Below, piece by piece: positions 2,090-36,360 of a stretch of 45,326 bases of DNA. Under the pieces are notes generated by a model. That model did not search any database and was not told where the DNA came from. It was given only the letters and a program-made list of their open reading frames with translations. The position numbers were made by a program, and so were the translations under genes. Origin of the DNA: a phage; the sequence record PX405663.1; one strand, given 5' to 3'. How positions within the stretch are numbered: the first letter of the stretch is position 1; each line of letters opens with the position of its first letter.

Positions 2090-2419
2090 ATGAATGTAAA
2101 CGACGCAATCGAAATGTTAACGAAGACTGTTAGCAGTGAAACAAGCCGGTCATGGGCTTATACCGATGCCGTTGGGGCGGTGTTGTTTGAAATCGAACGT
2201 CTGCGACTTACCGAAAAAGAATTGCGCGCGAAGCTGGAATTACTCAACGGTACTGCAGCAAGCAAGCTGCAAAAGCACAATGAAGAAATGGAAGAATACA
2301 AAAAACAGGTTATCCGTTTGCGCGCCGAGGGCAAATCCTGGGCAATGATTGCCGAGTTGACTGGGATTAATCAGAGCACAGTGCGCTCCTGGGTACGCAA
2401 TAATAAAACTTCTAAGTAA
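2090..2419 (+). CDS. coiled-coil plus C-terminal helix-turn-helix DNA-binding protein (109 aa)
   Basis: ORF track; GAGGG SD; C-terminal SWAMIAELTGINQSTVRSWV resembles an HTH. Confidence 0.55.
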   Translation: MNVNDAIEMLTKTVSSETSRSWAYTDAVGAVLFEIERLRLTEKELRAKLELLNGTAASKLQKHNEEMEEYKKQVIRLRAEGKSWAMIAELTGINQSTVRSWVRNNKTSK

Positions 2420-2429
2420 GGCCACGGCA

Positions 2430-4694
2430 ATGAGCTTAATTAAATTCGCTGTAACACGACCCGCTAAAAAAGGCGAAAAAGCCAGGGCGGAAAACTTCCA
2501 GATGACCACCGATGAATTTTTCGAATTTATCAAAGATGCGAAAGAAATCTCATCGGTGCATATCAACAAGACGGAAGATAAAGCCGAGTATGCGCGCCGC
2601 AAGCGTAAGGCCGATGGCATCGTAGCATATACCAGTGACGGCCTTCGCCGCAAGACCAGTGCGGTGGACCGCTCGATCCTGTTCTTCGATATCGACCGTA
2701 CCGACACCCGCACCTTACGCCGCTGCCGTAAGGCGTTCATTGACGCGGGTCTGGAACATGTGTTTCACACCACTACCGGCGACCGTCACCCGCTTAAAGG
2801 TGGAACGCGTTGCGCTCGCTTCCTGGTACTCACTGACAAGCCTGTACCGGCTGAAGACCTGGGCCGCGTCCAGTATGCACTATTACACCAACTGGGTCTG
2901 TCAGATGTGGACTTCGACGACTGCACGAAAGACACAAACCGCCTGATGTACCTGCCCCACCAGCAGTCTGTTATTAAGTGCCACTATGGCAAGCGCGCCC
3001 GCGTCCGTCGTCTGCTCCGCCTGGCTGACAAGCTGGGGGTGGAAAAAGAGGAAGTACGCCGCGAGCTTACCCAGGGCGACGACGCAGTGGCAGACGGTAT
3101 TCTGGACTGGTGCTTCCAGGCAGGATTCGAGGAGTTATCTTCCGGGCGGGGCTATGAAGTGCCGTGCCCGAACGAACATCTGCACAGCGGCGAAGGGTCC
3201 ACCGCCATAATGGTCAAGGATGGCGAGATCCGTTTCAAGTGTATGCACACCGGCAACGAGTGTTGCTCGGAACTGAATAGACACCAGCACCTGGCGCTAC
3301 GTCTTATCGGGATCCCGGACCACCTGAACGTCGAGCCACACAATATGTCCCGTAAGCAAATCGCCGCCATCCTTCCGGGGCTGGACGACGAGGAAGTCGA
3401 ATCCTTATATGAACATATTGTTGATGCGGTTGGAGACGGCGAAGAATACGGCGTGTGCACCGATGCGGATCTGGATAACGAGCCGGTTGCGCTGTTCAGT
3501 AAGCACGACCCGATTATCGAGGGGTTGATTAACTTTAAATCGACCTGGTACATGGCGGGTGAGTCGAATATCGGTAAGTCTTTCTATGTGCTGGGCCAGA
3601 TGGGCGCGGTTGCCGCCGGTATTCCGTTTGGTGGCGCGAAGGTCGTCCAGTCTCATTGCTTCTATTTCGACGCGGAAGGTGGCGAAGCCTCTAACCAGCG
3701 TAAAGAAGCATTGCAGATTAAATATGAGCACGACCTGGACAAGCTGCACATTATAGACCTGCAGTCACGCGGCTGGGATATCACCAGCAAATCAGGCTTG
3801 CGCGAAGTTATCAGCTTTATCAACCGCACCGCTAACGGCGAACCGGTTGGCCTGGTGGCGTTCGACTCACTCAACCAGACTGTTGCGTTGCGGTCCGCTG
3901 ATGCTAAACCGTTCGACGAGAACAACGCCAGCGATATGGGTGAAGTGGTCAAAGCGCTGAAGGCCATCGCGGAAAATACAGGTGGCAGTGCGGGCGTCAT
4001 CCACCACCCGGCTAAAGGTGCAAACGGCAGCAGAACGCCACGCGGGTCCGGCGCGCTGCATGGTGCTGTCGATTCTGCGTTCTTCCTGGAACAGCCGGAC
4101 GACAACCAGCCCGGACAATTGAACCTGTATCATGAGAAGTCACGTAACGGCATCAAGCAAGCGCCGCGCGGCTTCGTCCTGCTCAAGTGCAAGGTGAAGG
4201 TGGATCTCCGCAAGTCAGAAGCGTTCGAGGCGCACCAGTCCACCAGCACCGGGCCAGACTTCGGCGACGTGGTTGCCGGATGGGACGTCAAGCCGATTGC
4301 CTCCACGCCACGCGACGAGACTCTCTACCTCGTACCGGTTGCCCTGGCACCTTTCGCTATTGAACAGGCGAAGGCAGCAGGCAAGGCCGCGGTTAAGGAA
4401 GAGAACACCGCCGGACCGCGCAACGAAAAAGAGAAAGTGCTTTATGCGGCACTGGAAAAACTGATGGAAGATAACCCGGACCATACTGGATTCAGTAAAT
4501 CGGCAATTGTCCGCCAGGCGGGACTCGCGAAAGGCGGCACTTCGACGAAGGCAATCGACGATATGGTGGAGCGCGGGGTGATAGGTTTTTACACCGATCC
4601 GCACACCGGGGCCATCTATGGGTCGTCTAATTTGGTCATCAAATCGGATATCCCTATCACGCTTTCCGCGACCGATGACGATTTAAAAGATTAA
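2430..4694 (+). CDS. DNA primase-helicase (primase-polymerase-like N-terminal domain, zinc-binding region, P-loop NTPase/helicase C-terminal half)
   Basis: 754-aa ORF; FFDIDRTD and HVFHTTTGD primase-like motifs; CPNEHLHSG...CMHTGNEC zinc motif; Walker A GESNIGKS. Confidence 0.75.
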   Translation: MSLIKFAVTRPAKKGEKARAENFQMTTDEFFEFIKDAKEISSVHINKTEDKAEYARRKRKADGIVAYTSDGLRRKTSAVDRSILFFDIDRTDTRTLRRCRKAFIDAGLEHVFHTTTGDRHPLKGGTRCARFLVLTDKPVPAEDLGRVQYALLHQLGLSDVDFDDCTKDTNRLMYLPHQQSVIKCHYGKRARVRRLLRLADKLGVEKEEVRRELTQGDDAVADGILDWCFQAGFEELSSGRGYEVPCPNEHLHSGEGSTAIMVKDGEIRFKCMHTGNECCSELNRHQHLALRLIGIPDHLNVEPHNMSRKQIAAILPGLDDEEVESLYEHIVDAVGDGEEYGVCTDADLDNEPVALFSKHDPIIEGLINFKSTWYMAGESNIGKSFYVLGQMGAVAAGIPFGGAKVVQSHCFYFDAEGGEASNQRKEALQIKYEHDLDKLHIIDLQSRGWDITSKSGLREVISFINRTANGEPVGLVAFDSLNQTVALRSADAKPFDENNASDMGEVVKALKAIAENTGGSAGVIHHPAKGANGSRTPRGSGALHGAVDSAFFLEQPDDNQPGQLNLYHEKSRNGIKQAPRGFVLLKCKVKVDLRKSEAFEAHQSTSTGPDFGDVVAGWDVKPIASTPRDETLYLVPVALAPFAIEQAKAAGKAAVKEENTAGPRNEKEKVLYAALEKLMEDNPDHTGFSKSAIVRQAGLAKGGTSTKAIDDMVERGVIGFYTDPHTGAIYGSSNLVIKSDIPITLSATDDDLKD

Positions 4695-4794
4695 ATTTTG
4701 CGCGCATTGGTTGCCATTTTGCGTGCTTTTAGTCGGTCGTATTGGTTGCCGTGTAGTGTAAATATAGTGAATAGTTATGCAATAAAACTGCATA

Positions 4795-4965
4795 AAGTAA
4801 GCGGGACAAAAAGCGGGACAACCAGGGGGCGGGACAAAGCGGGACAGCACCCCTGTCCCGCCCCGGATGACGCGGCCTGGAGAGGAGCGGGACAGCGGGA
4901 CAGCACCCCAGTCTTTCAGACTAGACGGGGGGTCTGGCACCCCCCTCGTCTGAGACTGCATAAAA
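4795..4965. repeat. noncoding array 1: GCGGGACA(A/G) repeats in direct and inverted orientation ending in a conserved 51-bp imperfect hairpin (4908..4958)
   Basis: At least 7 copies of GCGGGACA within about 120 bp including the palindrome GGGACAGCACCCCTGTCCC; near-identical copy of the terminal element at 22101..22150. Confidence 0.8.
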
Positions 4966-5112
4966 TCCAGGATTGCATAATACACGGCAGCGTGATGCGA
5001 ATTGCGGTCGTCGACGAACTAGGCAACCAATACGAGTTGCAGAATGGTGGGTGAAAAATGCAGTTTGCAGTTTCAGCAGATAGCGATCAACTTTTTCATG
5101 CGCGTGATTGAT

Positions 5113-5169
5113 ATTGGTTGCACCCACCCTGGCACCCTGCTATATTGGTTGCACACCAACATGAGGACC
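5113..5169 (+). promoter_or_regulatory. tandem TATTGGTTGCA promoter-like motifs with TATATT -10 and conserved leader
   Basis: TTGCAC, 17 nt, TATATT; 27-nt stretch TATATTGGTTGCACACCAACATGAGGA is identical to the minus-strand sequence at 16214..16240. Confidence 0.55.
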
Positions 5170-5174
5170 GAACA

Positions 5175-5501
5175 ATGAAAGCGATTATCTGGAATTACGC
5201 AATGGCTATGGCGGCGGCACAAGAAGCGGCGGAGTTCGCCGGTGAAGGAGCGGAAGCGGTCGAAAGACTATCGGCAGCGTGGTCCGTTGTTCGCGTCACG
5301 CAGCAGGCCATCGCCTGTATGCTTGAGCGCCGCTTCGACACTATGGGAGAGATCCAGCCGTTGGCGAACGCTATCCAGGACTACGCGCTGGCATTTGCCC
5401 GTGAGCGCCTGGCGTATCGCTTCGGGATCGGTGAGACGGCAGCGACAAACGTCGCCCGGATTAAAGCCCAGCGCGAACTATTCGCCCAGCTTGCGAAATA
5501 A
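5175..5501 (+). CDS. hypothetical early protein (108 aa)
   Basis: ORF track frame, start moved to the ATG 7 nt after GAGGA. Confidence 0.5.
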   Translation: MKAIIWNYAMAMAAAQEAAEFAGEGAEAVERLSAAWSVVRVTQQAIACMLERRFDTMGEIQPLANAIQDYALAFARERLAYRFGIGETAATNVARIKAQRELFAQLAK

Positions 5502-16213: not shown

Positions 16214-16262
16214 CATTTCCTCATGTTGGTGTGCAACCAATATACTGCAACCAACATACGCA
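16214..16262 (-). promoter_or_regulatory. tandem TATTGGTTGCA promoter-like motifs driving the antisense DnaN-like operon
   Basis: Minus strand reads TATGTTGGTTGCAGTATATTGGTTGCACACCAACATGAGGA; 27 nt identical to 5143..5169. Confidence 0.55.
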
Positions 16263-21823: not shown

Positions 21824-22160
21824 TTAAGCGGGACAGGCGGGACGTCCCGTTCTGTCCCGTTCCGTCCCGCCTCCTGCAAAACTGCATACTTACGCACCAC
21901 ATTTGCATAAACTAAAAGCGGGACAGGGGTGCTGTCCCGATCCGTCCCACCCCAAAAATGTGAATGTCTATTCAGTTTTAGTGCATAAAACAAACGGGAC
22001 AAAAAGCGGGACAGAATTGGGCGGGACAAAGCGGGACAGCACCCCTGTCCCCGCCAGTGCTGCCGCGGGTTTTAGCCAATCAGGACAGGCGGGACAAAGC
22101 CCAGTCTTTCAGACTAGACGGGGGTCGATGGCCCCCCTCGTCTGAGACTGAATAAGGTTT
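21824..22160. repeat. noncoding array 2: more than 15 GGGACA-core repeats in both orientations plus the conserved 51-bp hairpin (22101..22150), inserted between the tail chaperone and tape measure genes
   Basis: GCGGGACAG, GCGGGACG, CGTCCCG, CTGTCCCG and others; the palindrome GGGACAGCACCCCTGTCCC is shared with array 1. Confidence 0.8.
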
Positions 22161-22218
22161 GTTTTAAATTCGCTGATACAATGACCGACGGCAACTGCAT
22201 AAAAAGGGGGACTGCATA

Positions 22219-24861
22219 ATGGCAGATCAGGCAGCGGGCATCACGCTCAAGGCGGACGTCGCGCAAATTAAAACGGCTAATACTGTGCTGGACACATTTG
22301 CGCAGAAATCCGAGAACACAGAACAGAAAGTAAAAAAATTAAACGACACCCTCGGCAAGTCGAAAAAGGTTACTGGCGACGCCGCGGGCGGAATGGAAAA
22401 GTTAGCGACTGAATCGCAGCGCGCCGCCGACGGCATGACGAAACAGGAGCGACTCGCCAGCCGATTAGGCATGTCGACCAAAAACCTGGGATTTGCTTCA
22501 CGGAACGCGGCATTCCAGTTACAAGATATTGCGGTAACGCTTGAGATGGGTATGCCGGTGCACCGCGTCATGCTTCAGCAGTTACCACAGCTAACCGGCG
22601 CATTCGGCGGATTAGGTAACACGCTGCGTTATGTTGCGGGCTTCCTCGGCCCAGTAGGGATCGGACTTGCGGCAGTAACGGCGACGTTAGGCGTGGGCGT
22701 GGCAATCACGTCACGGGCAGAGAACCAGGTAGCCGCGCTTAATAAGACGCTGGCGCTGTCCGGTAATATCTCCGGCCTCACAGCTAACCAGATCCTGGTG
22801 CTGTCCGAGAACGCTGAGCGCATGGGCGGGTCATTTCGCAAGACGCGTGACACAATCCAGGCGCTGGCGGCGGCGGGTGTGAAAGCGGGTGGTGACTTCG
22901 GCGCATTGGCTAAGGTAGTTAATGACTTTGCGAAGGTGTCCAGCCAGCCGATCGAGGATGTGGTAGCGGCGGTGGCGAAGCTGTCAACCGACCCCGTTGG
23001 CGGACTGCGTGCGCTGGCGGATAAGTATCACGTCGTAAACGAAGCGCAGATCCAGCAGGTACAGTCGCTTGTTGATGCGGGTCGTGAGACAGACGCAGTT
23101 GCGTTGGCTAATAAAACAGCCGCTGCGTCGTTCACTAGCATGACCAATGAGATCAAGACGAACATGGGAACGCTTGAGCGGTCTATGAACGTCGTCACAT
23201 CGGCAGCGAAATCTATGTGGGACGCCATCCTGGATGTAGGCCGCGCGCAGTCCTCCAATGAATCCGAGATGAAAGCGCGCGAATCACTGCAGCGGCTGAC
23301 CACTGCTTACTATGCCGAGATGAAAGCGGTAAACGCTGCCGGTGGGGTAATGACTGAAGCGCAGAAAGCACGTATTAACATGCTTTACAGCGAACTGGTC
23401 GCCCAGGAAAAAGTGGTGGCATCGCTCACCCTGCGTAACCGTGCTGAGCGAGACAACGCCCGCGCCGCAGACGAATCCGCAAAGGCGAACGAGGAGGCCA
23501 ACCGCACTGCCCGTGACCGCGCCGCGTTCGAGAAGGAATACGCCACCAACGCTAAGAAACGCGCCGACGAGATCGCCCGTCTCAATTTGCTGAATAAGCG
23601 CGGCGTTATCGACGAGAAAGAGCTTGCCGAGGCGGTGAAGCAGGTAAACGAGCGGTACAAAGACCCAGCCCCGAAGAAGGCCGCCGCTGTTCGCGTGGAT
23701 GCCGGTATGAAAATGCTGGAAGTCGCACGGAGCGAACTGGCCCAGCTTCGAGAATCCGGCAAGCAGATCGAAGCCAACGCATCGACGCAGACCCGCACGC
23801 AACGCGCTCAAGCGGCCTTAAACAAGCTGATCGCGGATAATGAGCAGTTAATCGCCGCAAGCAAAGAAAGGGCGCTAACGGCAGCAGAAAAGCAGCAGAT
23901 GGTCGAATTCGGACGCGTGAAGGAAGTGCGCGAGCAGATCGTCGAAGAAGCCAAATTGCTGGACGCGAAAGAGAAGCAGGTTAAGGCGCACGCGCAGATC
24001 GATGCCTTCGTTAAGAACCAGAACGCCGAACTAAAAGCCACCGCCGCGGGGTATGCGCTTTCCACTCGCGAAGCGGCAAACCTGCGCGAAGAATTGCAGC
24101 TAATTGACCGCCTGAAGCGGGTTGGCGCTAACGATACCGATATTGACAAGGCGGTGTCTAAGCTGCGAGAAGTGCAGGAAGCACAGACCGGCGCTAACGC
24201 CTCGTTATGGGATGGATTCAGTCGCGGGCTTAAAGATAGCGTGGATGAAATGGGTAACGGATATACGCAGATGGCGTCGCTCACGAAATTCACATTCAGC
24301 GCTATGCAAGACACGATGAACGAGTTTTTCGAGACTGGCAAGCTGAACGCAAAGGATATGGTTAAATCCATCCTGAGCGAACTAATCAAGCTGGCTACCT
24401 CGCAGGCGTTCAAGTCCATCGTTAGCGCTTTCGGTGGCGACGGCGGCAAAAACGGATTGTTCGGCGCTATATTCTCTGGCCTCACTAAGAATGCGGACGG
24501 CGGAGCGTACGCAGGAGGCAATCTCGCGGCCTATTCGGGGAAAGTCGTAAGCCAGCCTACCTTTTTCAGTTATGGCGTCCAGGCGTTCGCTAAGGGCGCT
24601 GGGTTGATGGGTGAGGCTGGACCCGAGGCCATCATGCCACTGAAGCGCGGGCCGGACGGGAAACTGGGCGTTGCCGCGTCTGGCGCAGGCGGTGGTATGG
24701 TCGTGACGACTAACGTTTACACGGGGACCGGTAAAACGGATACCAGTGTCAGCGGGCCGGACCCCCGTACTGCGCAAGCGTTCGGCAAGCAAATCACCGA
24801 GGCGGTGAAGGCCGAGATCGTGAAGGCTACGAAACCGGGTGGTGTACTTTACAAACGATGA
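22219..24861 (+). CDS. tail tape measure protein
   Basis: 880-aa Ala/Gln/Lys-rich coiled-coil ORF; synteny. Confidence 0.85.
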   Translation: MADQAAGITLKADVAQIKTANTVLDTFAQKSENTEQKVKKLNDTLGKSKKVTGDAAGGMEKLATESQRAADGMTKQERLASRLGMSTKNLGFASRNAAFQLQDIAVTLEMGMPVHRVMLQQLPQLTGAFGGLGNTLRYVAGFLGPVGIGLAAVTATLGVGVAITSRAENQVAALNKTLALSGNISGLTANQILVLSENAERMGGSFRKTRDTIQALAAAGVKAGGDFGALAKVVNDFAKVSSQPIEDVVAAVAKLSTDPVGGLRALADKYHVVNEAQIQQVQSLVDAGRETDAVALANKTAAASFTSMTNEIKTNMGTLERSMNVVTSAAKSMWDAILDVGRAQSSNESEMKARESLQRLTTAYYAEMKAVNAAGGVMTEAQKARINMLYSELVAQEKVVASLTLRNRAERDNARAADESAKANEEANRTARDRAAFEKEYATNAKKRADEIARLNLLNKRGVIDEKELAEAVKQVNERYKDPAPKKAAAVRVDAGMKMLEVARSELAQLRESGKQIEANASTQTRTQRAQAALNKLIADNEQLIAASKERALTAAEKQQMVEFGRVKEVREQIVEEAKLLDAKEKQVKAHAQIDAFVKNQNAELKATAAGYALSTREAANLREELQLIDRLKRVGANDTDIDKAVSKLREVQEAQTGANASLWDGFSRGLKDSVDEMGNGYTQMASLTKFTFSAMQDTMNEFFETGKLNAKDMVKSILSELIKLATSQAFKSIVSAFGGDGGKNGLFGAIFSGLTKNADGGAYAGGNLAAYSGKVVSQPTFFSYGVQAFAKGAGLMGEAGPEAIMPLKRGPDGKLGVAASGAGGGMVVTTNVYTGTGKTDTSVSGPDPRTAQAFGKQITEAVKAEIVKATKPGGVLYKR

Positions 24862-31102: not shown

Positions 31103-32068
31103 TCAATACATATTTGGGATGACGAGTAGCGGGGTAGGTACGGCAATATTTTTACCCGGCATCTGAAATTGCTGCCGTGAGTAGTTGCCGATGACGCGGT
31201 TTTTAGCGACGCGCACATTATTACCCGCCATGCGAATACCGTTCATGCGGACGTGATTATAGCCCCCGTTGTTCTGAATCAGCGCACCGGTGTATGAAAG
31301 CTGGATCAGGCTGTTTCCAATATTCTGGTCGCCCGTTCCGATGTTAATAGTGCGGTCATATACGAACGGCTTGTTCACCGTCGAGAACGTGACCTGATTC
31401 TGGCTATTCGTCATGGTGATCCCGGCCCCTGGCGTTGGTGGTGTATTGTTGAATATTACCAAATCCATGTCCACCGAAGCCGCCACATCGTCGATGCCAC
31501 CGTAGGACGCGTTGCGGACGATAATACTGCCGCCGTCGAAGCCTACTGATACGTTGCCATCGTCCCATCGGGCGAATGGGACACCGCTAACGGGCAATGC
31601 CATACTACCGTTGACGCGCACGCGCTGTGCGTATCGGCAGGTCATTAGCTTAGTCACGTTGGATATAGCGGTGAAGTCCGTCGAGTTCTCCACCAGTAAG
31701 CCCGCGTTACGTGAACCAACCGGCAGCACTTCCATTATGACGCCTGCCCATTGTGGTAAGCCAGAGTACGCGCCATACGCATCCTCCCCGCGCAGGGTGA
31801 TACCACTATTCCCGTTGCGGGTAACAGACGTAACGTAAAACGGGTCGGGAATTACCAGGGTCTGGTCGAATACCTCAATCACTTCTACCGGGCGAGTAAG
31901 CGCGACGACGACCTGCGACCCCTCCGTAAGAGGGGTATTAATCGTAAGCGTCTTGTTGGACTGGCAGCGCTGATCAAACGCAGTGCAGTATGACGGAGCG
32001 CGCAACCCGGCGGTTATCTCCATTACCGGCCTGCCGTCGTTATAGTCGATAAGTATTCCAGCGCCCAT
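31103..32068 (-). CDS. Asn/Gly/Val-rich beta-rich protein (about 321 aa), antisense between J and the tail fibre; receptor-related candidate
   Basis: Track ORF 31103..32077; the second ATG has the better GGGAG spacing. Confidence 0.5.
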   Translation of the reverse strand: MGAGILIDYNDGRPVMEITAGLRAPSYCTAFDQRCQSNKTLTINTPLTEGSQVVVALTRPVEVIEVFDQTLVIPDPFYVTSVTRNGNSGITLRGEDAYGAYSGLPQWAGVIMEVLPVGSRNAGLLVENSTDFTAISNVTKLMTCRYAQRVRVNGSMALPVSGVPFARWDDGNVSVGFDGGSIIVRNASYGGIDDVAASVDMDLVIFNNTPPTPGAGITMTNSQNQVTFSTVNKPFVYDRTINIGTGDQNIGNSLIQLSYTGALIQNNGGYNHVRMNGIRMAGNNVRVAKNRVIGNYSRQQFQMPGKNIAVPTPLLVIPNMY

Positions 32069-32070
32069 TA

Positions 32071-32292
32071 TTACCACTCCCGTGATTTAACTGATACTGT
32101 GCCTGAGAAGTTGCCGTCGCTATCGGATGACAGCCCAGTGAATCGCATGTCTACATCTCCTGCCGGGACTTTTTGCCCGTCAACGTAGCGCAACATGCAG
32201 CTACCGTAAGCAACCGTAACGCAATCGCCGTTGTTGCGATCTACGGCGCAACCGGACAAAAGAACCGCACAAATCATAATTAAAGTTTTCAT
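32071..32292 (-). CDS. small lipoprotein (about 73 aa), candidate superinfection-exclusion lipoprotein
   Basis: Track ORF 32071..32355 trimmed to MKTLIMICAVLLSGCAV (signal peptide with lipobox LSGC). Confidence 0.55.
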   Translation of the reverse strand: MKTLIMICAVLLSGCAVDRNNGDCVTVAYGSCMLRYVDGQKVPAGDVDMRFTGLSSDSDGNFSGTVSVKSREW

Positions 32293-32334
32293 GGTATCAT
32301 CTCTTATATTTGGTTGAGTTTTAGTATTACACCG

Positions 32335-32362
32335 CTCAACCAGGATTGCAACCAATTTACGA
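32335..32362 (-). promoter_or_regulatory. TATTGGTTGCA-type promoter-like motif oriented toward the antisense lipoprotein gene
   Basis: Minus strand reads AAATTGGTTGCAATCC about 45 nt upstream of the lipoprotein start; overlaps the tail fibre SD on the other strand. Confidence 0.45.
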
Positions 32363-32372
32363 GGATTTAGCT

Positions 32373-34688
32373 ATGGCAGCGGGTACGCTATCCGTAACGA
32401 ACAATAGCAAGGCGGTAGTAGGGGTCGGCACGACGTTTACCGCGTTTAAAGCTGGCGACTTCTTAACGCTGGTGGTAGGACAAGTCCCATACACCGTGGC
32501 AATCGCGTCCGTTGAAAGCGCAACCGCGCTTACGCTGGTGCTGCCGTTCGACGGCCCAACGGCAACCGGCCTCGCGTGGGATGGTGTTAAGCGCGATACC
32601 ATGTCACTGGCGACGATGGGCGTAACCGTACAGGCGCAGAAAGCGTTGCGATTGATGATCGCCGATGAAAACAACTGGCGTGCAATCTTCGGAGACGAAG
32701 AAGAAATCTCGATCACGCTGCCGAATGGTCAGGTAATGCAGGGTATGTCGTGGGGCTACCTGTCGTCTTTGCTGAAGGAAGTAGACCCCGTTGAGATGCG
32801 CAACCTGCAACAACAAGCCGCCGCATCTGAAGCCGCCGCGCAAGGATTTCGCAATGAGGCGGAAGGCTTCAAGAACACCGCGAATACCGCGAAAGATGCC
32901 GCAGTAGCAGCGAAGACCGCGGCGGAGACTGCACGGGGCGAAGCCAACACCGCAAAAACGGCAGCAGAGTCCGCAAAGACCGCCGCGGAGACCGCTAAAG
33001 ACCAGGCCGTAACCGCTAAAGACCAGGCTAAAGTCTTCCGCGACGAGGCCGAGGGTTTCGCAAATAGCACAGACGCGTCACAGAAAGTGCCGTACGCGGG
33101 TGTGCAAGTAGCATCTGCAACTGGAATGGCGGACCTGCTCAAGCAGTTGCGCGATAATGTTAAAGGTGGATTCTGGCGCATCGCTAATACATCTCAGTTC
33201 CCCGAGGGCGAACTGAGACCTTTTACACACGGACCCGGTATTTGTGGTGGTGCTGGGGATACATTCTTTGCTATTAACGTTGATTACTCATCAGCGCGCG
33301 TTAAAGTTTACGCTGGAAACAATAACGCTATCAATGGTACGAGTGGACAGGTGCGCGCCCTTGAGTTGGCTAGGCTAGATTCCCCCACTTTTACGGGTAA
33401 AGTGAATGCGCCTAATATTGGGGTTGGCACGGTTACACTACGGCCCGTAACTTCCGGGGAAGGCAGCGGTGACGGGGTTGTTTGGGAGTCTAGAAACGCC
33501 TCGGAGGCAAGTTTCGGTATTGCGAATGTCGGCGGGGGGTCCGCGGTTTTCCACAACTACTCAAAACCGGCAAACGGATCCGGCGTGGCTACAGGAGTGC
33601 TTATTGGGGGGTATGGGTCGCGTCCGTGGACTGGTACTACATATACGGACCACTCAAACGTGTCGCAGCACTTCCTCATGGACGGGACCGCTTCGGATAC
33701 TAACCACGGCGGCTGGTTTAGGTTGCTAACAACCCCATTGAATAAGACCAACGCCGACCGGAGGCAAACATTCGCGACCAGCAACAACGGCGACCTTTAT
33801 ATAGGTTTCGATGTGCCTATGGGGCTTTATAAGCTAACGCAGGAAAGTTACAACGGATTGGAAGTATTAAACGGTCGCGGTCTTAAACAAGTAAATAACA
33901 CAGCTAATGAAATAGCCTTAATCACCCCACGAAACGGGTCGACCGCTAATATAAACATCCGAGGTGTGGCTTTTGACGGCACAATGGCTGGCACTAAGGG
34001 GGCAACTCAGCCGGGAGACAACTTGTGGCTATCTTTTGCAGGTCACGATGGGGTGAAATTCACGGGTGCCGCTGCCGGTATGCGTATTCAGGCGTCGACT
34101 GGCTGGTCAACCACAAACACGCAATGCGGAATAACGTTTGCGACAACGAAAGCAGGGTCCACGCAGAGGGTGGATCGGTGGAGCATTACGAGCGACGGGT
34201 CGCTGTCCCCCGCAGCCGACAACACATACCCGATCGGCAGTGCAGTCTCCCGTGTTACCGCAGTCTTTGCCACAAATGGTGCAATACAGACCTCGGATGC
34301 AAGAATGAAGACCGAGGTTAGGGGTTTAACAGCGGCTGAGATGGGTGCCTCTAAAGAAATCGCCCGTGAGATTGGTATTTTCCAGTGGCTTGCGCGAGTA
34401 GCCGAAGAGGGGGATGAGGCGAGGCTCCATGCCGGTATTACCGTGCAGAAAGTGATGGAAATCATGCGGTCTTACGGTCTGGACCCCTTGAAGTATGGAT
34501 TCGTGTGTTACGACGAATGGGAGGAGACTTCAGAGGTTATAAGCGACCCCGATGATAATTCGAAGTCGACGATCAAGATAACCCCCGCGGGCAATAGATA
34601 TAGCTTGCGATATTCGGAACTAAACGTGTTTATCGCCCGAGGACTTGAGCAAAGAATCTCAGAACTGGAGGCTAAGTTAGCTGGTTGA
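32373..34688 (+). CDS. side tail fibre with C-terminal intramolecular chaperone (peptidase S74-like) domain
   Basis: Track ORF 32346..34688 (TTG) trimmed to the ATG 8 nt after GAGGA; C-terminal SDARMK...IGIFQWL...LKYGFVCYDEWEE...RISELEAKLAG resembles the self-cleaving chaperone of endosialidase/L-shaped fibres. Confidence 0.75.
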   Translation: MAAGTLSVTNNSKAVVGVGTTFTAFKAGDFLTLVVGQVPYTVAIASVESATALTLVLPFDGPTATGLAWDGVKRDTMSLATMGVTVQAQKALRLMIADENNWRAIFGDEEEISITLPNGQVMQGMSWGYLSSLLKEVDPVEMRNLQQQAAASEAAAQGFRNEAEGFKNTANTAKDAAVAAKTAAETARGEANTAKTAAESAKTAAETAKDQAVTAKDQAKVFRDEAEGFANSTDASQKVPYAGVQVASATGMADLLKQLRDNVKGGFWRIANTSQFPEGELRPFTHGPGICGGAGDTFFAINVDYSSARVKVYAGNNNAINGTSGQVRALELARLDSPTFTGKVNAPNIGVGTVTLRPVTSGEGSGDGVVWESRNASEASFGIANVGGGSAVFHNYSKPANGSGVATGVLIGGYGSRPWTGTTYTDHSNVSQHFLMDGTASDTNHGGWFRLLTTPLNKTNADRRQTFATSNNGDLYIGFDVPMGLYKLTQESYNGLEVLNGRGLKQVNNTANEIALITPRNGSTANINIRGVAFDGTMAGTKGATQPGDNLWLSFAGHDGVKFTGAAAGMRIQASTGWSTTNTQCGITFATTKAGSTQRVDRWSITSDGSLSPAADNTYPIGSAVSRVTAVFATNGAIQTSDARMKTEVRGLTAAEMGASKEIAREIGIFQWLARVAEEGDEARLHAGITVQKVMEIMRSYGLDPLKYGFVCYDEWEETSEVISDPDDNSKSTIKITPAGNRYSLRYSELNVFIARGLEQRISELEAKLAG

Positions 34689-35332: not shown

Positions 35333-35827
35333 TTATTTAAGTGCGCCAGTCACCAGTGTTTTTTCCATGTTGCGGAAGTCTTCCGGCGTCATGAGGATTT
35401 TGGATCCGTCTTCGCCGGTGAGCACGACCATAGGCTGGAATTCTTGACCCGCAATGCCGAACTTAGCAGCATTGAAATTAGTGGCTTTGATCTTGGTAGG
35501 CCAGTCTTTTAGGCTGTCGTATTGCGCTGCCGTTGTATCGACCTGGATCTCGTCCTGCACGGTCATATAAGACTCGCCCAGCAGGGCGGCATACGCCACC
35601 AGATCCACGATATTATCTTCCTGGTGCTTACGGTGCTGGCGCACCAGCTTCAGGCAGATCAGGAAGGTCCAGGCTTCTTGCTCGGTCAGGTCGCGACCGG
35701 TAAGCGCGTTAAACACGGCGGCGATCTGTTTAGCGCTGCGTTCTTCTTTCGCGTTGTCATAGCCGTTTTCTTTCCCGCGCTGTTCCATAGTGGTGGCGGC
35801 GTTTTTGCAGTATTCGTATGCTTTCAT
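35333..35827 (-). CDS. hypothetical protein (about 164 aa)
   Basis: Track ORF 35333..35953 trimmed to MKAYEY with AAGGA SD. Confidence 0.5.
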   Translation of the reverse strand: MKAYEYCKNAATTMEQRGKENGYDNAKEERSAKQIAAVFNALTGRDLTEQEAWTFLICLKLVRQHRKHQEDNIVDLVAYAALLGESYMTVQDEIQVDTTAAQYDSLKDWPTKIKATNFNAAKFGIAGQEFQPMVVLTGEDGSKILMTPEDFRNMEKTLVTGALK

Positions 35828-35837
35828 TATGTTTTCC

Positions 35838-35905
35838 TTTTTAGTGGGGGCGGTATTGCCCCCGACGTGATTAAGATACTGCAACCAACCTATTGGTTGC
35901 AAGTG
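35838..35905 (-). promoter_or_regulatory. inverted pair of TGCAACCAA/TTGGTTGCA motifs followed by a leader hairpin
   Basis: Plus strand 35880..35902 TGCAACCAACCTATTGGTTGCA; GGGGGCGGTATTGCCCCC hairpin between motif and SD. Confidence 0.45.
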
Positions 35906-36360
35906 AATTTTGCAACGTTTATCGCATAAATTTTCGGGACCAGATCGCCGCACGCCCGACGAATTGCCGCGATGTTCTTCGGACAGTCTTCAATGATGAC
36001 CAGTTCCGACACGTCCGCGTAACAGACCATTTTGAACACGGCGCACGCCTTAAACTCTGGTGGCGGGGTGTCGTCCAGCATGTGGCGCATAAACAACCGG
36101 CCTACAGGGAATACCTCCAATTGCTCGGCGGTAGTGTCCCAACATTCTCTCTGCCGGTTGGTCAGATACGCGATCTCGAAGCCTTGATCTCTGTACATGC
36201 GCAGCAGCGGCAGCATATCCATGTTCAGGTCTTCGCGTACGTGCGCTTTGTGCCACTTCGCCCAAAATGTTGATTTGGTTTTTATACCCGGAACCAGGTC
36301 GGCACGCGCATCGCTTGAACCGTTAATAACGCCATCCAGATCGCAAATCAGTAATTTCAT
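35890..36360 (-). CDS. HAD-superfamily phosphatase-like protein
   Basis: 156 aa; N-terminal LICDLDGVI matches HAD motif I; GAGGAG SD. Confidence 0.5.
   Translation of the reverse strand: MKLLICDLDGVINGSSDARADLVPGIKTKSTFWAKWHKAHVREDLNMDMLPLLRMYRDQGFEIAYLTNRQRECWDTTAEQLEVFPVGRLFMRHMLDDTPPPEFKACAVFKMVCYADVSELVIIEDCPKNIAAIRRACGDLVPKIYAINVAKFTCNQ

What the first reader, a model, noticed from the sequence alone, without database searches (positions are those of the whole stretch)
4795..4965. Dense GCGGGACA repeat array with palindromes in a 480-bp noncoding gap after the primase-helicase gene
Within about 120 bp there are at least seven copies of GCGGGACA(A/G) in direct and inverted orientation, including the perfect inverted repeat GGGACAG-CACCC-CTGTCCC, flanked by several CTGCATAA boxes and followed by a conserved GC-rich hairpin. 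Closely spaced short direct repeats (iterons) are the classic signature of replication origins and of multimeric regulator-binding arrays; its position beside the replication genes makes an origin or a phage-specific control hub plausible. No coding capacity is evident.
Basis: partly seen in the sequence, partly recalled or inferred. Interest (0 to 1): 0.75.

Follow-up and report, generated by a model that had tools for sequence, protein, structure and literature searches.

The report
Likely two-part phage replication origin
The GCGGGACA repeats just after this coliphage's primase-helicase gene, which have a twin copy inside the tail genes, are most likely the origin sites that the enzyme's own DNA-binding end recognises; the design is known, but it is newly worked out for this phage group.

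Summary
Seven exact GCGGGACA copies (6 direct, 1 inverted) lie at 4801-4902, against 2.4 expected in the whole 45-kb genome. They sit in a 480-bp gap with no conserved ORF, next to one of the genome's most AT-rich stretches and before a conserved long hairpin.

The window is a Dhillonvirus genome. GenBank record GQ502199 already flags both as "repeat regions A/B", without a function.

Homologues of the 754-aa protein (AEP primase, Zn ribbon, RepA-like helicase, C-terminal winged helix) carry the same array-plus-hairpin layout after the gene. The repeated word differs by lineage, in at least nine classes. Near-identical enzymes with different words differ only in the winged helix. In two lineages with a switched word, the distant tail-gene array switched as well. 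The neighbouring small HTH protein does not co-vary.

Best reading (about 0.6): iteron sites read by the primase-helicase's own winged helix, forming a bipartite origin like SaPI Rep-ori or P4 ori/crr. Binding and origin firing are inferred, not shown. It is a new member of a known kind, of moderate interest.

The parts
2430..4694 (+). Gene for the 754-aa primase-helicase. Domains: AEP/Prim-Pol (about aa 1-205), Zn ribbon (aa 246-279), RepA-like AAA_25 helicase (aa 357-531), C-terminal winged helix.
4425..4640 (+). Coding region of the C-terminal winged-helix domain (aa 666-737), the proposed reader of the repeats.
4695..5174 (.). Region B: the 480-bp noncoding gap that holds the finding.
4755..4800 (.). 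AT-rich segment with TGAATAG / TTATGCA / CTGCATAA boxes, directly 5' of the first repeat. It is a candidate unwinding element and/or promoter.
   Evidence: Window 4761-4800 is 78% AT and ranks third in a genome that is 45% AT. The boxes are conserved across lineages that use different repeat words.
4801..4846 (+). Four direct GCGGGACA iterons (4801, 4813, 4829, 4839).
   Evidence: They are invariant in 17 Dhillonvirus-like sequences while the spacers vary.
4854..4861 (-). Inverted iteron. With the copy at 4839-4847 it forms the palindrome 4839-4861.
   Evidence: This arm is less conserved than the direct copies.
4887..4902 (+). Two abutting direct iterons (4887, 4895).
4909..4958 (+). Long imperfect three-segment hairpin, CAGTCTTTCAGACTAGACGGGGGG-loop-CCCCCCTCGTCTGAGACTG.
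   Evidence: Fold z = -3.0. The stem is invariant and the loop variable within the genus. The same three-helix shape appears with a different sequence in each distant lineage.
4956..4991 (+). CTGCATAA (4956) and TTGCATAA (4973) boxes 17 nt apart, followed by CGGCAGC (4985).
   Evidence: The same pair with the same spacing occurs at 22195/22212.
5118..5146 (+). Promoter-like TTGCAC-17 nt-TATATT overlapped by two TATTGGTTGC boxes. It precedes the next gene (ATG at 5175).
   Evidence: Read directly from the sequence. It falls below the threshold of the consensus scan.
21825..22218 (.). Region A: the second, paralogous array, in the gap between the tail assembly chaperone (stop at 21824) and the tape-measure gene (ATG at 22219).
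21826..21950 (.). Two extra palindromic iteron clusters: 21826-21871 (2 direct + 3 inverted GGGAC cores) and 21918-21950 (1 direct + 2 inverted).
   Evidence: The first is annotated as a 'terminator' or 'repeat_region' in some records.
21994..22097 (+). Core array homologous to 4800-4902: four direct copies, one inverted copy, a spacer, then two direct copies.
   Evidence: The pairwise alignment is 71% identical.
22102..22150 (+). Second copy of the long hairpin.
22174..22219 (+). Extended -10-like TGATACAAT (22174-22182), CGGCAAC, and two CTGCATAA boxes (22195, 22212). The second box overlaps the tape-measure start codon.
2090..2419 (+). Small HTH_23 / sigma-70 region-4-like protein upstream of the primase-helicase. 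It was tested as an alternative reader and rejected.
   Evidence: Pfam hit. Its recognition helix STVRSWVRN is identical in phages using CGGGACA, GTGTGGCA and GTGTGCCA.

Best explanation
The GCGGGACA copies are iterons, short binding sites for the winged-helix domain at the C-terminus of the primase-helicase encoded immediately upstream. Region B (4755-4990) and its paralogue region A (21825-22218) together form a bipartite, cis-acting replication-initiation system.

Proposed sequence of events. All steps are inferred unless marked as shown.
1. The winged helix of several protomers docks on the direct and inverted iterons. This concentrates and oligomerises the RepA-like helicase next to the AT-rich segment.
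2. The duplex opens there, and the conserved long hairpin can extrude on the unwound strand.
3. The N-terminal AEP primase makes the first primer, and the phage DNA polymerase I extends it.
4. Region A is either a second origin or a P4-crr-like partner site bound by the same protein.

What is shown here: the repeats, their strong excess and their conservation; the domain architecture; the co-variation of the repeat word with the winged helix, including at the distant array; and the absence of any conserved coding frame. What is not shown: physical binding, unwinding, priming, and the actual start site of replication.
For: 1. Excess and clustering. There are 14 exact copies against 2.4 expected, 13 of them in two gaps. 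The CGGGACA clusters rank first among all 7-mer clusters in the genome.
2. Binding-site style of conservation. The words are invariant while the spacers, spacing (8-16 nt) and copy number vary.
3. Position and context. [quoted passage not shown]
4. Domain architecture. The protein ends in a winged helix, preceded by an AEP primase and a RepA-like helicase.
5. Conserved layout with lineage-specific words. In homologues at 33-87% identity the order of elements after the gene is the same: AT-rich boxes, four direct copies, inverted copy or copies, a spacer, two direct copies, a hairpin. The word differs by lineage: CGGGACA, GTGTGGCA, GTGTGCCA, TTGCGAGT, GGGGGAGA, TGTCGGA, CGGACAA, AGGGATA, GGGGATG.
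6. Natural domain swaps. Enzymes 94-99% identical in the primase and helicase domains, but using different words, are only 43-50% identical in the winged helix. Same-word pairs on different backbones keep 68-71%. The swap boundary lies about 320 nt before the stop codon, at the start of the linker and winged helix.
7. The distant array switches too. On contig ERR11172925_9173 the tail-gene gap carries 4 GTGGCA and 0 CGGGAC copies, matching the array after the primase-helicase gene on the same contig. The same holds for the sample pairs ERR13731138 (GTGGCA) and SRR25999232 (GTGCCA).
8. Other candidate readers fail. The upstream HTH has an identical recognition helix in all three classes. Downstream ORF families do not track the word.
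9. Precedent. SaPI Rep and PriRep5 read 5-6-nt iterons, 6-12 of them immediately downstream of rep, through a C-terminal winged-helix domain (PMC9371898). The pRN1 origin is a stem-loop 3' of the gene for a primase-helicase-WH protein, conserved as a structure but not as a sequence (PMC4234260).
Against: There are no replication data. The cumulative GC-skew minimum lies at about 1-2 kb, in the divergent promoter region, and it follows the coding strand, so it neither supports nor excludes region B.

Some relatives that keep a WH-like C-terminus have no array directly after the gene: Jersey, K1G, LotteLoewe, and loci L035-38, L040 and L043.

Phage EE09 lacks the palindrome and the two 3'-most direct iterons (three of the seven copies) in region B and is still a viable isolate.

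The layout differs from SaPI: the AT-rich stretch is at the flank rather than the centre. The helicase is RepA-like, not SF3.

Both arrays sit in transcribed, co-oriented regions with promoter-like boxes on both sides, so a transcriptional role for the same protein-DNA complex cannot be excluded.

The winged-helix assignment rests on a model. Foldseek E-values are weak (0.03 or higher) and the P4 alpha domain was not among the top hits.

In the two sample-level pairs, assignment to one genome rests on contig lengths that sum to about 45 kb. Only the ERR11172925 case lies on a single contig.
Confidence: 0.6

Rival explanations
1. The arrays are bound by the winged helix, or by another phage factor, but serve mainly as a transcriptional control hub. 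Possible roles are a roadblock or attenuator after the primase-helicase and tail-chaperone genes, autoregulation, or activation of the promoters just downstream (tape-measure gene; genes from 5175). They would not be start sites of replication.
For: Both arrays lie inside co-oriented transcription units. They sit between promoter-like boxes: TG(A/C)ATA-17 nt-CATAAA upstream, and TGATACAAT or TTGCATAAT downstream. Other annotators called the first palindrome of region A a terminator. A drop in expression between the chaperone and the tape measure would make biological sense.
Against: The consensus scans find no sigma-70 promoter or + strand intrinsic terminator in either gap. The reader domain is part of a primase-helicase, and all characterised analogues of that architecture use it for origin recognition. 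A purely regulatory site would not need an adjacent AT-rich stretch and a structure-conserved hairpin.
Confidence: 0.2
2. The conserved units act as RNA: a cis-acting leader, antiterminator or processing element, or a protein-sponge RNA made of the GGGACA repeats and hairpins. This would be analogous to nut/put sites, which occur downstream of two promoters.
For: Most copies are in the sense orientation in both regions. The long hairpin is conserved as a structure with lineage-specific sequence. The RNA fold is stable, -28 to -31 kcal/mol for the hairpin segment. Promoter-like boxes lie just upstream.
Against: No Rfam family matches, even at E = 1. Functional copies occur in both orientations. 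The palindrome arms are not kept by compensatory change: the right arm simply degenerates. The word co-varies with a dsDNA-binding-type winged helix. The hairpin is explained equally well as a single-stranded DNA structure.
Confidence: 0.07
3. The repeats are sites for a different DNA transaction: packaging (pac/terminase), partition-like centromeres, recombination hot spots, or sites for a host protein.
For: Dispersed arrays of short repeats are also typical of centromere and terminase-binding sites. Three records start their linear sequence inside region B.
Against: The terminase genes lie elsewhere, and two identical pac sites would be unusual. The phage is virulent, so a partition function has no obvious use. 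Host-factor sites would not change word among phages of the same host. The source paper reports no termini for these phages. No similar DNA is found in E. coli genomes or plasmids.
Confidence: 0.08
4. The feature is not real: a chance or compositional repeat, or a protein-coding region. Several GenBank records annotate hypothetical proteins across the gap.
For: JL1, Ioannina and others carry CDS annotations in the gap. ORFs of 100-118 codons are open in the window.
Against: None of 100 shuffles reaches the observed count. The ORFs match no PHROG or Pfam family. The frames are broken by indels in relatives.
Confidence: 0.01

Closest known systems
SaPI Rep / PriRep5 and the SaPI ori (Staphylococcus aureus pathogenicity islands)
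   Same: A self-loading helicase, fused to a primase in SaPI5, has a C-terminal winged helix that reads short iterons. Six to twelve of them lie immediately downstream of the ORF, with an AT-rich stretch and copies in both orientations. Different islands have different words and matching specificities (PMC9371898).
   Different: The SaPI motor is an AAA+/SF3-type helicase with 3'-5' polarity, whereas here it is RepA-like AAA_25. In SaPI the AT-rich region is central, whereas here it is at the 5' flank. SaPI has no second distant array and no long hairpin.
Satellite phage P4 alpha protein with ori and crr
   Same: One polypeptide combines a primase, a helicase and a C-terminal winged-helix origin-binding domain (PMC2777425). 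Octamer iterons occur in two separated clusters, both bound by the protein (ori and the cis replication region crr; from my own knowledge of the P4 literature, not read here).
   Different: The P4 primase is DnaG-type and its helicase is SF3. There is no sequence or top-ranking fold match to the P4 domain. The P4 sites are 4.5 kb apart; here they are 17 kb apart, and one lies inside the tail operon.
pRN1 ORF904 (Sulfolobus plasmid) and related phage replication proteins (e.g. Bordetella BIP-1)
   Same: The protein combines an AEP prim-pol, a helicase and a winged helix. The origin lies just 3' of its own gene and consists of a long stem-loop that is conserved as a structure but not as a sequence (PMC4234260). 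The hairpin here behaves the same way.
   Different: No iterons were found in pRN1. Its helicase is SF3 and its stem-loop is about 100 nt.
RSF1010/IncQ oriV with RepA, RepB' and RepC
   Different: RSF1010 uses three separate proteins, 20-bp iterons and two ssi hairpins on opposite strands. Here there is one fused protein, 8-nt words and one hairpin per locus in the same orientation.
Bacillus phage SPP1 oriL/oriR
   Same: Two distant clusters of the same initiator-binding repeats, one of them in the late-gene region (my own knowledge, not checked here).
   Different: The SPP1 initiator G38P is a separate protein that recruits a loader and a DnaB-type helicase. There is no homology.

Membership tests
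Iteron origin read by a self-loading primase/helicase with a C-terminal winged helix (SaPI Rep, P4 alpha, pRN1 ORF904 type) | Six or more short repeats, in both orientations, immediately 3' of the initiator ORF | tested here: met
   Seven GCGGGACA copies at 4801-4902, starting 107 nt after the stop codon. The same holds in homologues.
Iteron origin read by a self-loading primase/helicase with a C-terminal winged helix (SaPI Rep, P4 alpha, pRN1 ORF904 type) | The initiator carries primase, helicase and C-terminal winged-helix domains | tested here: met
Iteron origin read by a self-loading primase/helicase with a C-terminal winged helix (SaPI Rep, P4 alpha, pRN1 ORF904 type) | Iteron word matches the specificity of the winged helix | tested here: met
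   Comparative evidence only. There are nine word classes, each with its own turn/recognition-helix signature. Domain swaps occur at 94-99% core identity. The distant array switches in step. No binding assay was possible.
Iteron origin read by a self-loading primase/helicase with a C-terminal winged helix (SaPI Rep, P4 alpha, pRN1 ORF904 type) | AT-rich unwinding region within or next to the iterons | tested here: met
   4761-4800 is 78% AT, third highest in the genome. Region A has 21955-21994 at 75% AT. The stretch flanks the array rather than sitting at its centre.
Iteron origin read by a self-loading primase/helicase with a C-terminal winged helix (SaPI Rep, P4 alpha, pRN1 ORF904 type) | Superfamily 3 / AAA+ helicase motor | tested here: not met
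   The motor is Pfam AAA_25, with only a weak PDB sequence hit to RSF1010 RepA. The element therefore works like these systems but is not a homologous member of their protein family.
Iteron origin read by a self-loading primase/helicase with a C-terminal winged helix (SaPI Rep, P4 alpha, pRN1 ORF904 type) | Demonstrated binding, melting and origin activity | not testable with these tools
   Needs EMSA or footprinting, marker-frequency analysis, and plasmid ori assays.
RSF1010/IncQ oriV | Three and a half 20-bp iterons bound by a separate RepC protein | tested here: not met
   The words are 8 nt with variable spacing. No separate initiator co-varies with them.
RSF1010/IncQ oriV | Two ssi hairpins on opposite strands | tested here: not met
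   There is one hairpin per locus, and both are in the + orientation.
P4 ori/crr two-site arrangement | Two separated clusters of the same octamer in one genome | tested here: met
   Region B and region A. Klebsiella phage VLCpiS11a also has two clusters, with its own word.
P4 ori/crr two-site arrangement | The second site is required in cis for replication | not testable with these tools
   Requires deletion genetics.
Intrinsic terminator plus sigma-70 promoter intergenic region | GC-rich hairpin followed by a T-run, and consensus -35/-10 hexamers | tested here: not met
   The scans found no + strand terminator and no promoter at 9 of 12 matches or better in either gap. Weaker promoter-like boxes do exist.
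Known structured RNA families (Rfam 15) | Covariance-model match | tested here: not met
   No hit at the gathering score in the whole window, and none at E <= 1 in 4650-5250.

The most novel reading that the evidence does not exclude
The winged helix plus its iterons is an exchangeable 'replicon identity' cassette, rewritten at two distant sites at once. It keeps co-infecting relatives from using each other's origins. The second array, wedged between the tail chaperone and tape-measure genes with its own promoter, would physically couple helicase loading or replication to late tail-gene transcription, rather than being a simple spare origin.
Probability: 0.15. Interest if true: 0.7.

Novelty: new member of a known kind. 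Interest (0 to 1): 0.5.

Why it matters
Dhillonviruses and their Guernseyvirinae relatives are common, much-isolated coliphages and Salmonella phages. They are part of the BASEL collection and of many therapy candidates. I found no described origin of replication for them in the accessible literature; the repeats appear only as an uninterpreted GenBank note.

This analysis gives a concrete, testable origin and names the protein domain that should read it. It offers at least nine natural specificity pairs of winged helix and word. Some sit on near-identical enzyme backbones, which makes them ready material for studying how a small DNA-binding domain retargets. It also explains why assemblies of these phages break at two places. 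Finally, it flags several database CDS annotations in the gap as probably spurious.

Tried and rejected
- **GC skew.** It tracks the coding strand, with a minimum at the divergent promoter region, so it is not informative.
- **Promoter and terminator scans.** Nothing reached threshold on the + strand.
- **Rfam.** No match.
Rejected, because its recognition helix is identical across three word classes.
Rejected, because the ORF families cross word classes.
- **Protein search with the C-terminal 135 aa alone.** It returned only two fragments; the full-length search was used instead.
- **Pattern scans for the GTGGCA-plus-hairpin lineage.** Both IMG/VR and JGI metagenomes returned nothing. The lineage was reached instead through the tape-measure protein in Logan assemblies.
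- **Foldseek against PDB.** It gave only weak winged-helix hits, and the P4 alpha domain was not recovered, so no claim of specific kinship to P4 is made.
- **Record start inside region B in WFI, PTXU06 and Zar3M.** I considered whether this marks real genome ends. The source paper reports no termini for these phages, so I treat the start as arbitrary.
- **Searches of E. coli genomes and plasmids for satellites carrying the array.** No match.

Full report
**What the window is**

The 45,326-bp window is essentially a complete genome of a Dhillonvirus, an HK578-like virulent siphophage of E. coli. The gap region is 90-95% identical to EC115, StarDew, JL1 and HK578, and about 159 phage records match it. 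The genes from 2090 to about 35 kb are on the + strand: a small HTH protein, the primase-helicase, small early genes, lysis genes, terminase, and head and tail genes. The DNA polymerase, nuclease and SNF2 helicase genes are on the - strand.

**Check of the observation**

- Exact GCGGGACA occurs 14 times in the genome, against a mean of 2.38 (maximum 7) in 100 dinucleotide-preserving shuffles.
- Seven of these lie at 4801-4902, six direct and one inverted. The Poisson expectation for that span is 0.006.
- The palindrome GCGGGACAG/CTGTCCCGC spans 4839-4861.
- TGCATAA boxes lie at 4775(-), 4789, 4957 and 4974.
- A long GC-rich hairpin occupies 4909-4958. A 191-nt fold that includes it has z = -3.0 against shuffles.
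- The gap from the stop codon at 4694 to the next ATG at 5175 is 480 bp.

ORFs of 100-118 codons are open in the window, and some GenBank records annotate CDSs there. These ORFs match no Pfam or PHROG family. In five diverse relatives the frames are interrupted by 1-nt indels, a 56-nt deletion and 22-50-nt insertions. The gap is therefore noncoding.

Six further exact copies, or about 14 GGGAC cores, lie at 21825-22218. This is a 394-bp noncoding gap between the tail assembly chaperone (Phage_TAC_4, with the frameshift product ending at 21824) and the tape-measure gene (ATG at 22219).

The 3' 230 nt of this "region A" is a paralogue of the finding ("region B"). It has the same AT-rich boxes, four direct copies, an inverted copy, a spacer, two direct copies, the same hairpin (22102-22150) and the same pair of CTGCATAA boxes 17 nt apart. 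Identity is 71%. Region A also has two extra palindromic clusters upstream.

Both regions are conserved in all Dhillonvirus records. Together they hold 22 of the 63 GGGAC pentamers of the genome in 2% of its length.

The GenBank record of Sodalis phage SO-1 (GQ502199, deposited 2009) already annotates both as repeat_region "region A" and "region B", [quoted passage not shown]. My full-text searches found no paper that characterises them.

**Nature of the conservation**

Across 17 distinct Dhillonvirus-like sequences, the four leading CGGGACA words are invariant. The spacers between them differ freely (for example ACCAGGGG, AACTTGGG, AACTACAA, AAATTGAA). Start-to-start spacing ranges from 8 to 16 nt. 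The inverted arm is more degenerate than the direct copies. Phage EE09 lacks the palindrome and the two 3'-most direct copies altogether.

This is the pattern of protein-binding words, not of a single folded RNA. The hairpin behaves differently: its stem is invariant within the genus while the loop varies.

**The neighbouring protein**

The 754-aa product of 2430..4694 has four parts:
- A Cys/His zinc ribbon.
- A RepA-type AAA_25 helicase core (Pfam E = 2e-19). The only PDB sequence hit is a weak one to RSF1010 RepA.

**Comparative test 1: same layout, different word**

I collected full-length homologues from GenBank phages, from Logan and ENA assemblies and from IMG/VR. In most of them the gap just after the gene has the same order of elements, but the repeated word is lineage-specific.

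| Repeated word | Where found |
|---|---|
| CGGGACA | Dhillonvirus, L009, L024, L025 |
| GTGTGGCA | L010, L011 |
| GTGTGCCA | L071 |
| TTGCGAGT | Klebsiella phage VLCpiS11a and IMG/VR relatives |
| GGGGGAGA | Salmonella phage St162 group |
| TGTCGGA | L039, L048, L052 |
| CGGACAA | L042, L044-47 |
| AGGGATA | L041 |
| GGGGATG | L053 |

The flanking framework is shared across these classes: the GAATAGTTATGCA-type AT-rich boxes, a TTATTCA/TGAATA box after the hairpin, and CGGCAGC repeats. Each class has its own signature at the turn and the start of the recognition helix of the winged helix, for example KGGT-STKAI, GGS-STKPI, PGGS-TSKPV, SGN-YKKVL, GGD-RYKIL, GGR-RRPA and GGN-xRRR.

**Comparative test 2: natural domain swaps**

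- St162-type enzymes (GGGGAGA) and L042/L044 (CGGACAA) are 94-98% identical in the primase domain and 97-98% in the helicase domain. In the winged helix they are only 43-44% identical.
- L048 (TGTCGGA) and L045-47 (CGGACAA) are 98-99% identical in both core domains and 50% in the winged helix.
- Same-word pairs on different backbones keep 68-71% identity in the winged helix.

At the DNA level, identity falls from about 90% to about 50% at roughly 320 nt before the stop codon. That point is the start of the linker and winged helix. Identity stays low through the array and the hairpin.

**Comparative test 3: breaking the linkage confound**

The winged-helix codons and the proximal array are adjacent, so a single recombination event could move both without any functional tie. 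The distant array tests this.

- **Single-contig case.** Contig ERR11172925_9173 (27.6 kb) starts inside the chaperone/tape-measure gap and ends inside the gap after the primase-helicase gene. The assembly evidently broke at the A/B repeat. Its tail-gene gap has four GTGGCA and no CGGGAC copies, followed by the usual hairpin. This matches the GTGTGGCA array at its other end.
- **Sample ERR13731138.** Two contigs of 34.5 and 10.9 kb both carry GTGTGGCA arrays.
- **Sample SRR25999232.** Two contigs of 33.4 and 11.1 kb both carry GTGTGCCA arrays, and the enzyme has a third variant of the winged helix.

So the array 17 kb from the gene changes its word in step with the winged helix. Physical linkage does not explain that; a shared trans-acting reader does.

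**Other candidate readers**

Its HTH and recognition helix (...GINxSTVRSWVRN) are the same in phages of all three word classes.
- The first ORFs downstream of the gap fall into families that cross word classes, and same-word phages carry different ones.

The winged helix is the only co-varying DNA-binding segment I found.

**The hairpin**

In every lineage the array is followed by an imperfect hairpin of about 50 nt with three helical segments. The sequences differ between lineages:

| Lineage | Helical segments (5' arm, outer to inner) |
|---|---|
| Dhillonvirus (window) | CAGTC / TCAGAC / GGGGGG |
| L041 | TCCTC / GAGGA / GGGGTG |
| L048 | ATCATC / GATG / TGGTGG |
| L053 | GTCTCC / GGAG / GGGGG |
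| VLCpiS11a | ATGCTCAC / TTGCGT / ... |

The hairpin is thus conserved as a structure. The origin stem-loop 3' of the pRN1 primase-helicase-WH gene behaves the same way (PMC4234260).

In the window the hairpin is not followed by a T-run. Whether it acts as single-stranded DNA (a priming signal), as a cruciform, or as RNA cannot be decided here.

**Mechanism proposed**

The most economical reading is an iteron-type, self-loading origin. Winged-helix domains of several protomers bind the words. The RepA-like helicase assembles and opens the adjacent 78%-AT stretch at 4761-4800, which is the third most AT-rich 40-mer in the genome. The hairpin forms on the unwound strand. The AEP primase starts synthesis, and the phage DNA polymerase I extends the primer. 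Region A is either a second origin or a P4-crr-like partner site.

Only the sequence anatomy, the protein architecture and the co-variation are shown here. Binding, melting, priming and the start site are inferred from analogy with three systems:
- SaPI Rep and PriRep5: a C-terminal winged-helix domain reads 5-6-nt iterons placed immediately downstream of rep (PMC9371898).
- P4 alpha: primase, helicase and winged helix in one polypeptide (PMC2777425).
- pRN1.

**Evidence against, and limits**

- GC skew follows the coding strand and has its minimum at 1-2 kb, so it does not help.
- Some relatives (Jersey, K1G, LotteLoewe, L035-38, L040, L043) have a terminator and a reverse-oriented HTH gene after the primase-helicase gene instead of an array. 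Placement directly after the gene is therefore not universal.
- EE09 manages with four iterons in region B.
- Both arrays sit in transcribed regions between promoter-like boxes, so a role of the same complex in transcription is a live alternative. I put it at about 0.2.
- An RNA-level function (about 0.07) is disfavoured by the two orientations, the lack of compensatory changes in the palindrome, and the absence of any Rfam match.
- Packaging, partition or host-factor sites (about 0.08) do not fit the lineage-specific words.
- The core of region B has no counterpart in E. coli genomes or plasmids.

**Comparison with known systems, and novelty**

In function this looks like the SaPI, P4 and pRN1 class of origins. 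It is not a homologous member of those protein families, because the helicase motor is RepA/AAA_25-like rather than SF3. The domain set resembles a fusion of the three RSF1010 functions, but the 20-bp iterons and the paired opposite-strand ssi sites of IncQ are absent.

I file it as a new member of a known kind. The repeats had been noticed before, in the SO-1 GenBank note. What is new here is the assignment of a reader domain, the nine or more word classes, the domain swaps, and the concerted switch at the distant array.

Interest is moderate (0.5). A specialist would not be shocked, but the result makes the unknown origin of a widely used phage group directly testable. It also supplies a natural series of retargeted winged-helix/iteron pairs.

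Noticed in passing
window 1892, 4706, 4741, 5023(-), 5113, 5144, 5699(-), 16233(-), 16247(-), 35881(-)/35893, 37548(-), 37565(-), 44318, 44334: A second over-represented motif, (A)TTGGTTGC, occurs 13 times as ATTGGTTGC against 0.39 expected. It sits mostly in intergenic, promoter-like positions where its TTGC(A) serves as a -35-like hexamer, and often appears in pairs. It is also present in Klebsiella phage VLCpiS11a. In Salmonella phage St162 it is absent, and TTGGCTGC occurs instead in the gap after the primase-helicase gene. It could be an early-promoter element or the operator of the small HTH protein.
   Followed up: partly
window 5141-5167 and 16215-16241 (- strand): A cassette of about 27 nt, TATATTGGTTGCACACCAACATGAGGA, is repeated before two unrelated genes. 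It contains a -10-like box, a small GGTTG/CAACC hairpin and a Shine-Dalgarno sequence. One of the genes is the reverse-oriented 'moron' gene.
   Followed up: no
window 4985-4991, 22189-22195; L009 12513-12545; L011 6833-6890; L008 12933-12978: CGGCAGC/CGGCAAC repeats (1-3 copies) follow the hairpin in every lineage, whatever the iteron word. They might be priming or start sites read by a conserved part of the enzyme, or part of a conserved promoter or leader.
   Followed up: no
L048, L042, L053, L008 hairpins: In several Salmonella-phage lineages the loop or 3' arm of the long hairpin contains a degenerate inverted copy of that lineage's own iteron, for example TGTCGGA in L048 and ATCCCC in L053.
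   Followed up: no
L007 (NC_069154) 35652-35934 vs 4743-5297: Klebsiella phage VLCpiS11a also has a second, paralogous TTGCGAGT array. It lies between a spanin gene and the head-morphogenesis gene, not in the tail operon. Distal arrays therefore sit at different late-region sites in different genera.
   Followed up: partly
L010/L068 (ERR11172925_9173), L011+L069, L071+L070: Metagenomic assemblies of these phages break exactly at the A/B repeat. Contig pairs of about 28-34 kb and 11 kb sum to one genome. This is a practical warning for assembling this group.
   Followed up: yes
GenBank JL1 gp15 (L001 3168-3512), Ioannina WFD55469 (L005 40197-40583) and others over window 4695-5174: The hypothetical-protein CDSs annotated across the gap in several records are probably spurious. 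They match no family and their frames are not conserved.
   Followed up: yes
L006 (EE09) 31941-34282 and 31461-31940: EE09 annotates the primase-helicase as two CDSs (a split or frameshift). Its region B has a 56-nt deletion that removes three iterons. It is a natural reduced-array variant.
   Followed up: no
MG065648.1 'Campylobacter phage A144': A 35-kb record labelled as a Campylobacter phage encodes a primase-helicase 99.3% identical to the window's and carries region A. It looks like a mislabelled or contaminating Dhillonvirus.
   Followed up: no
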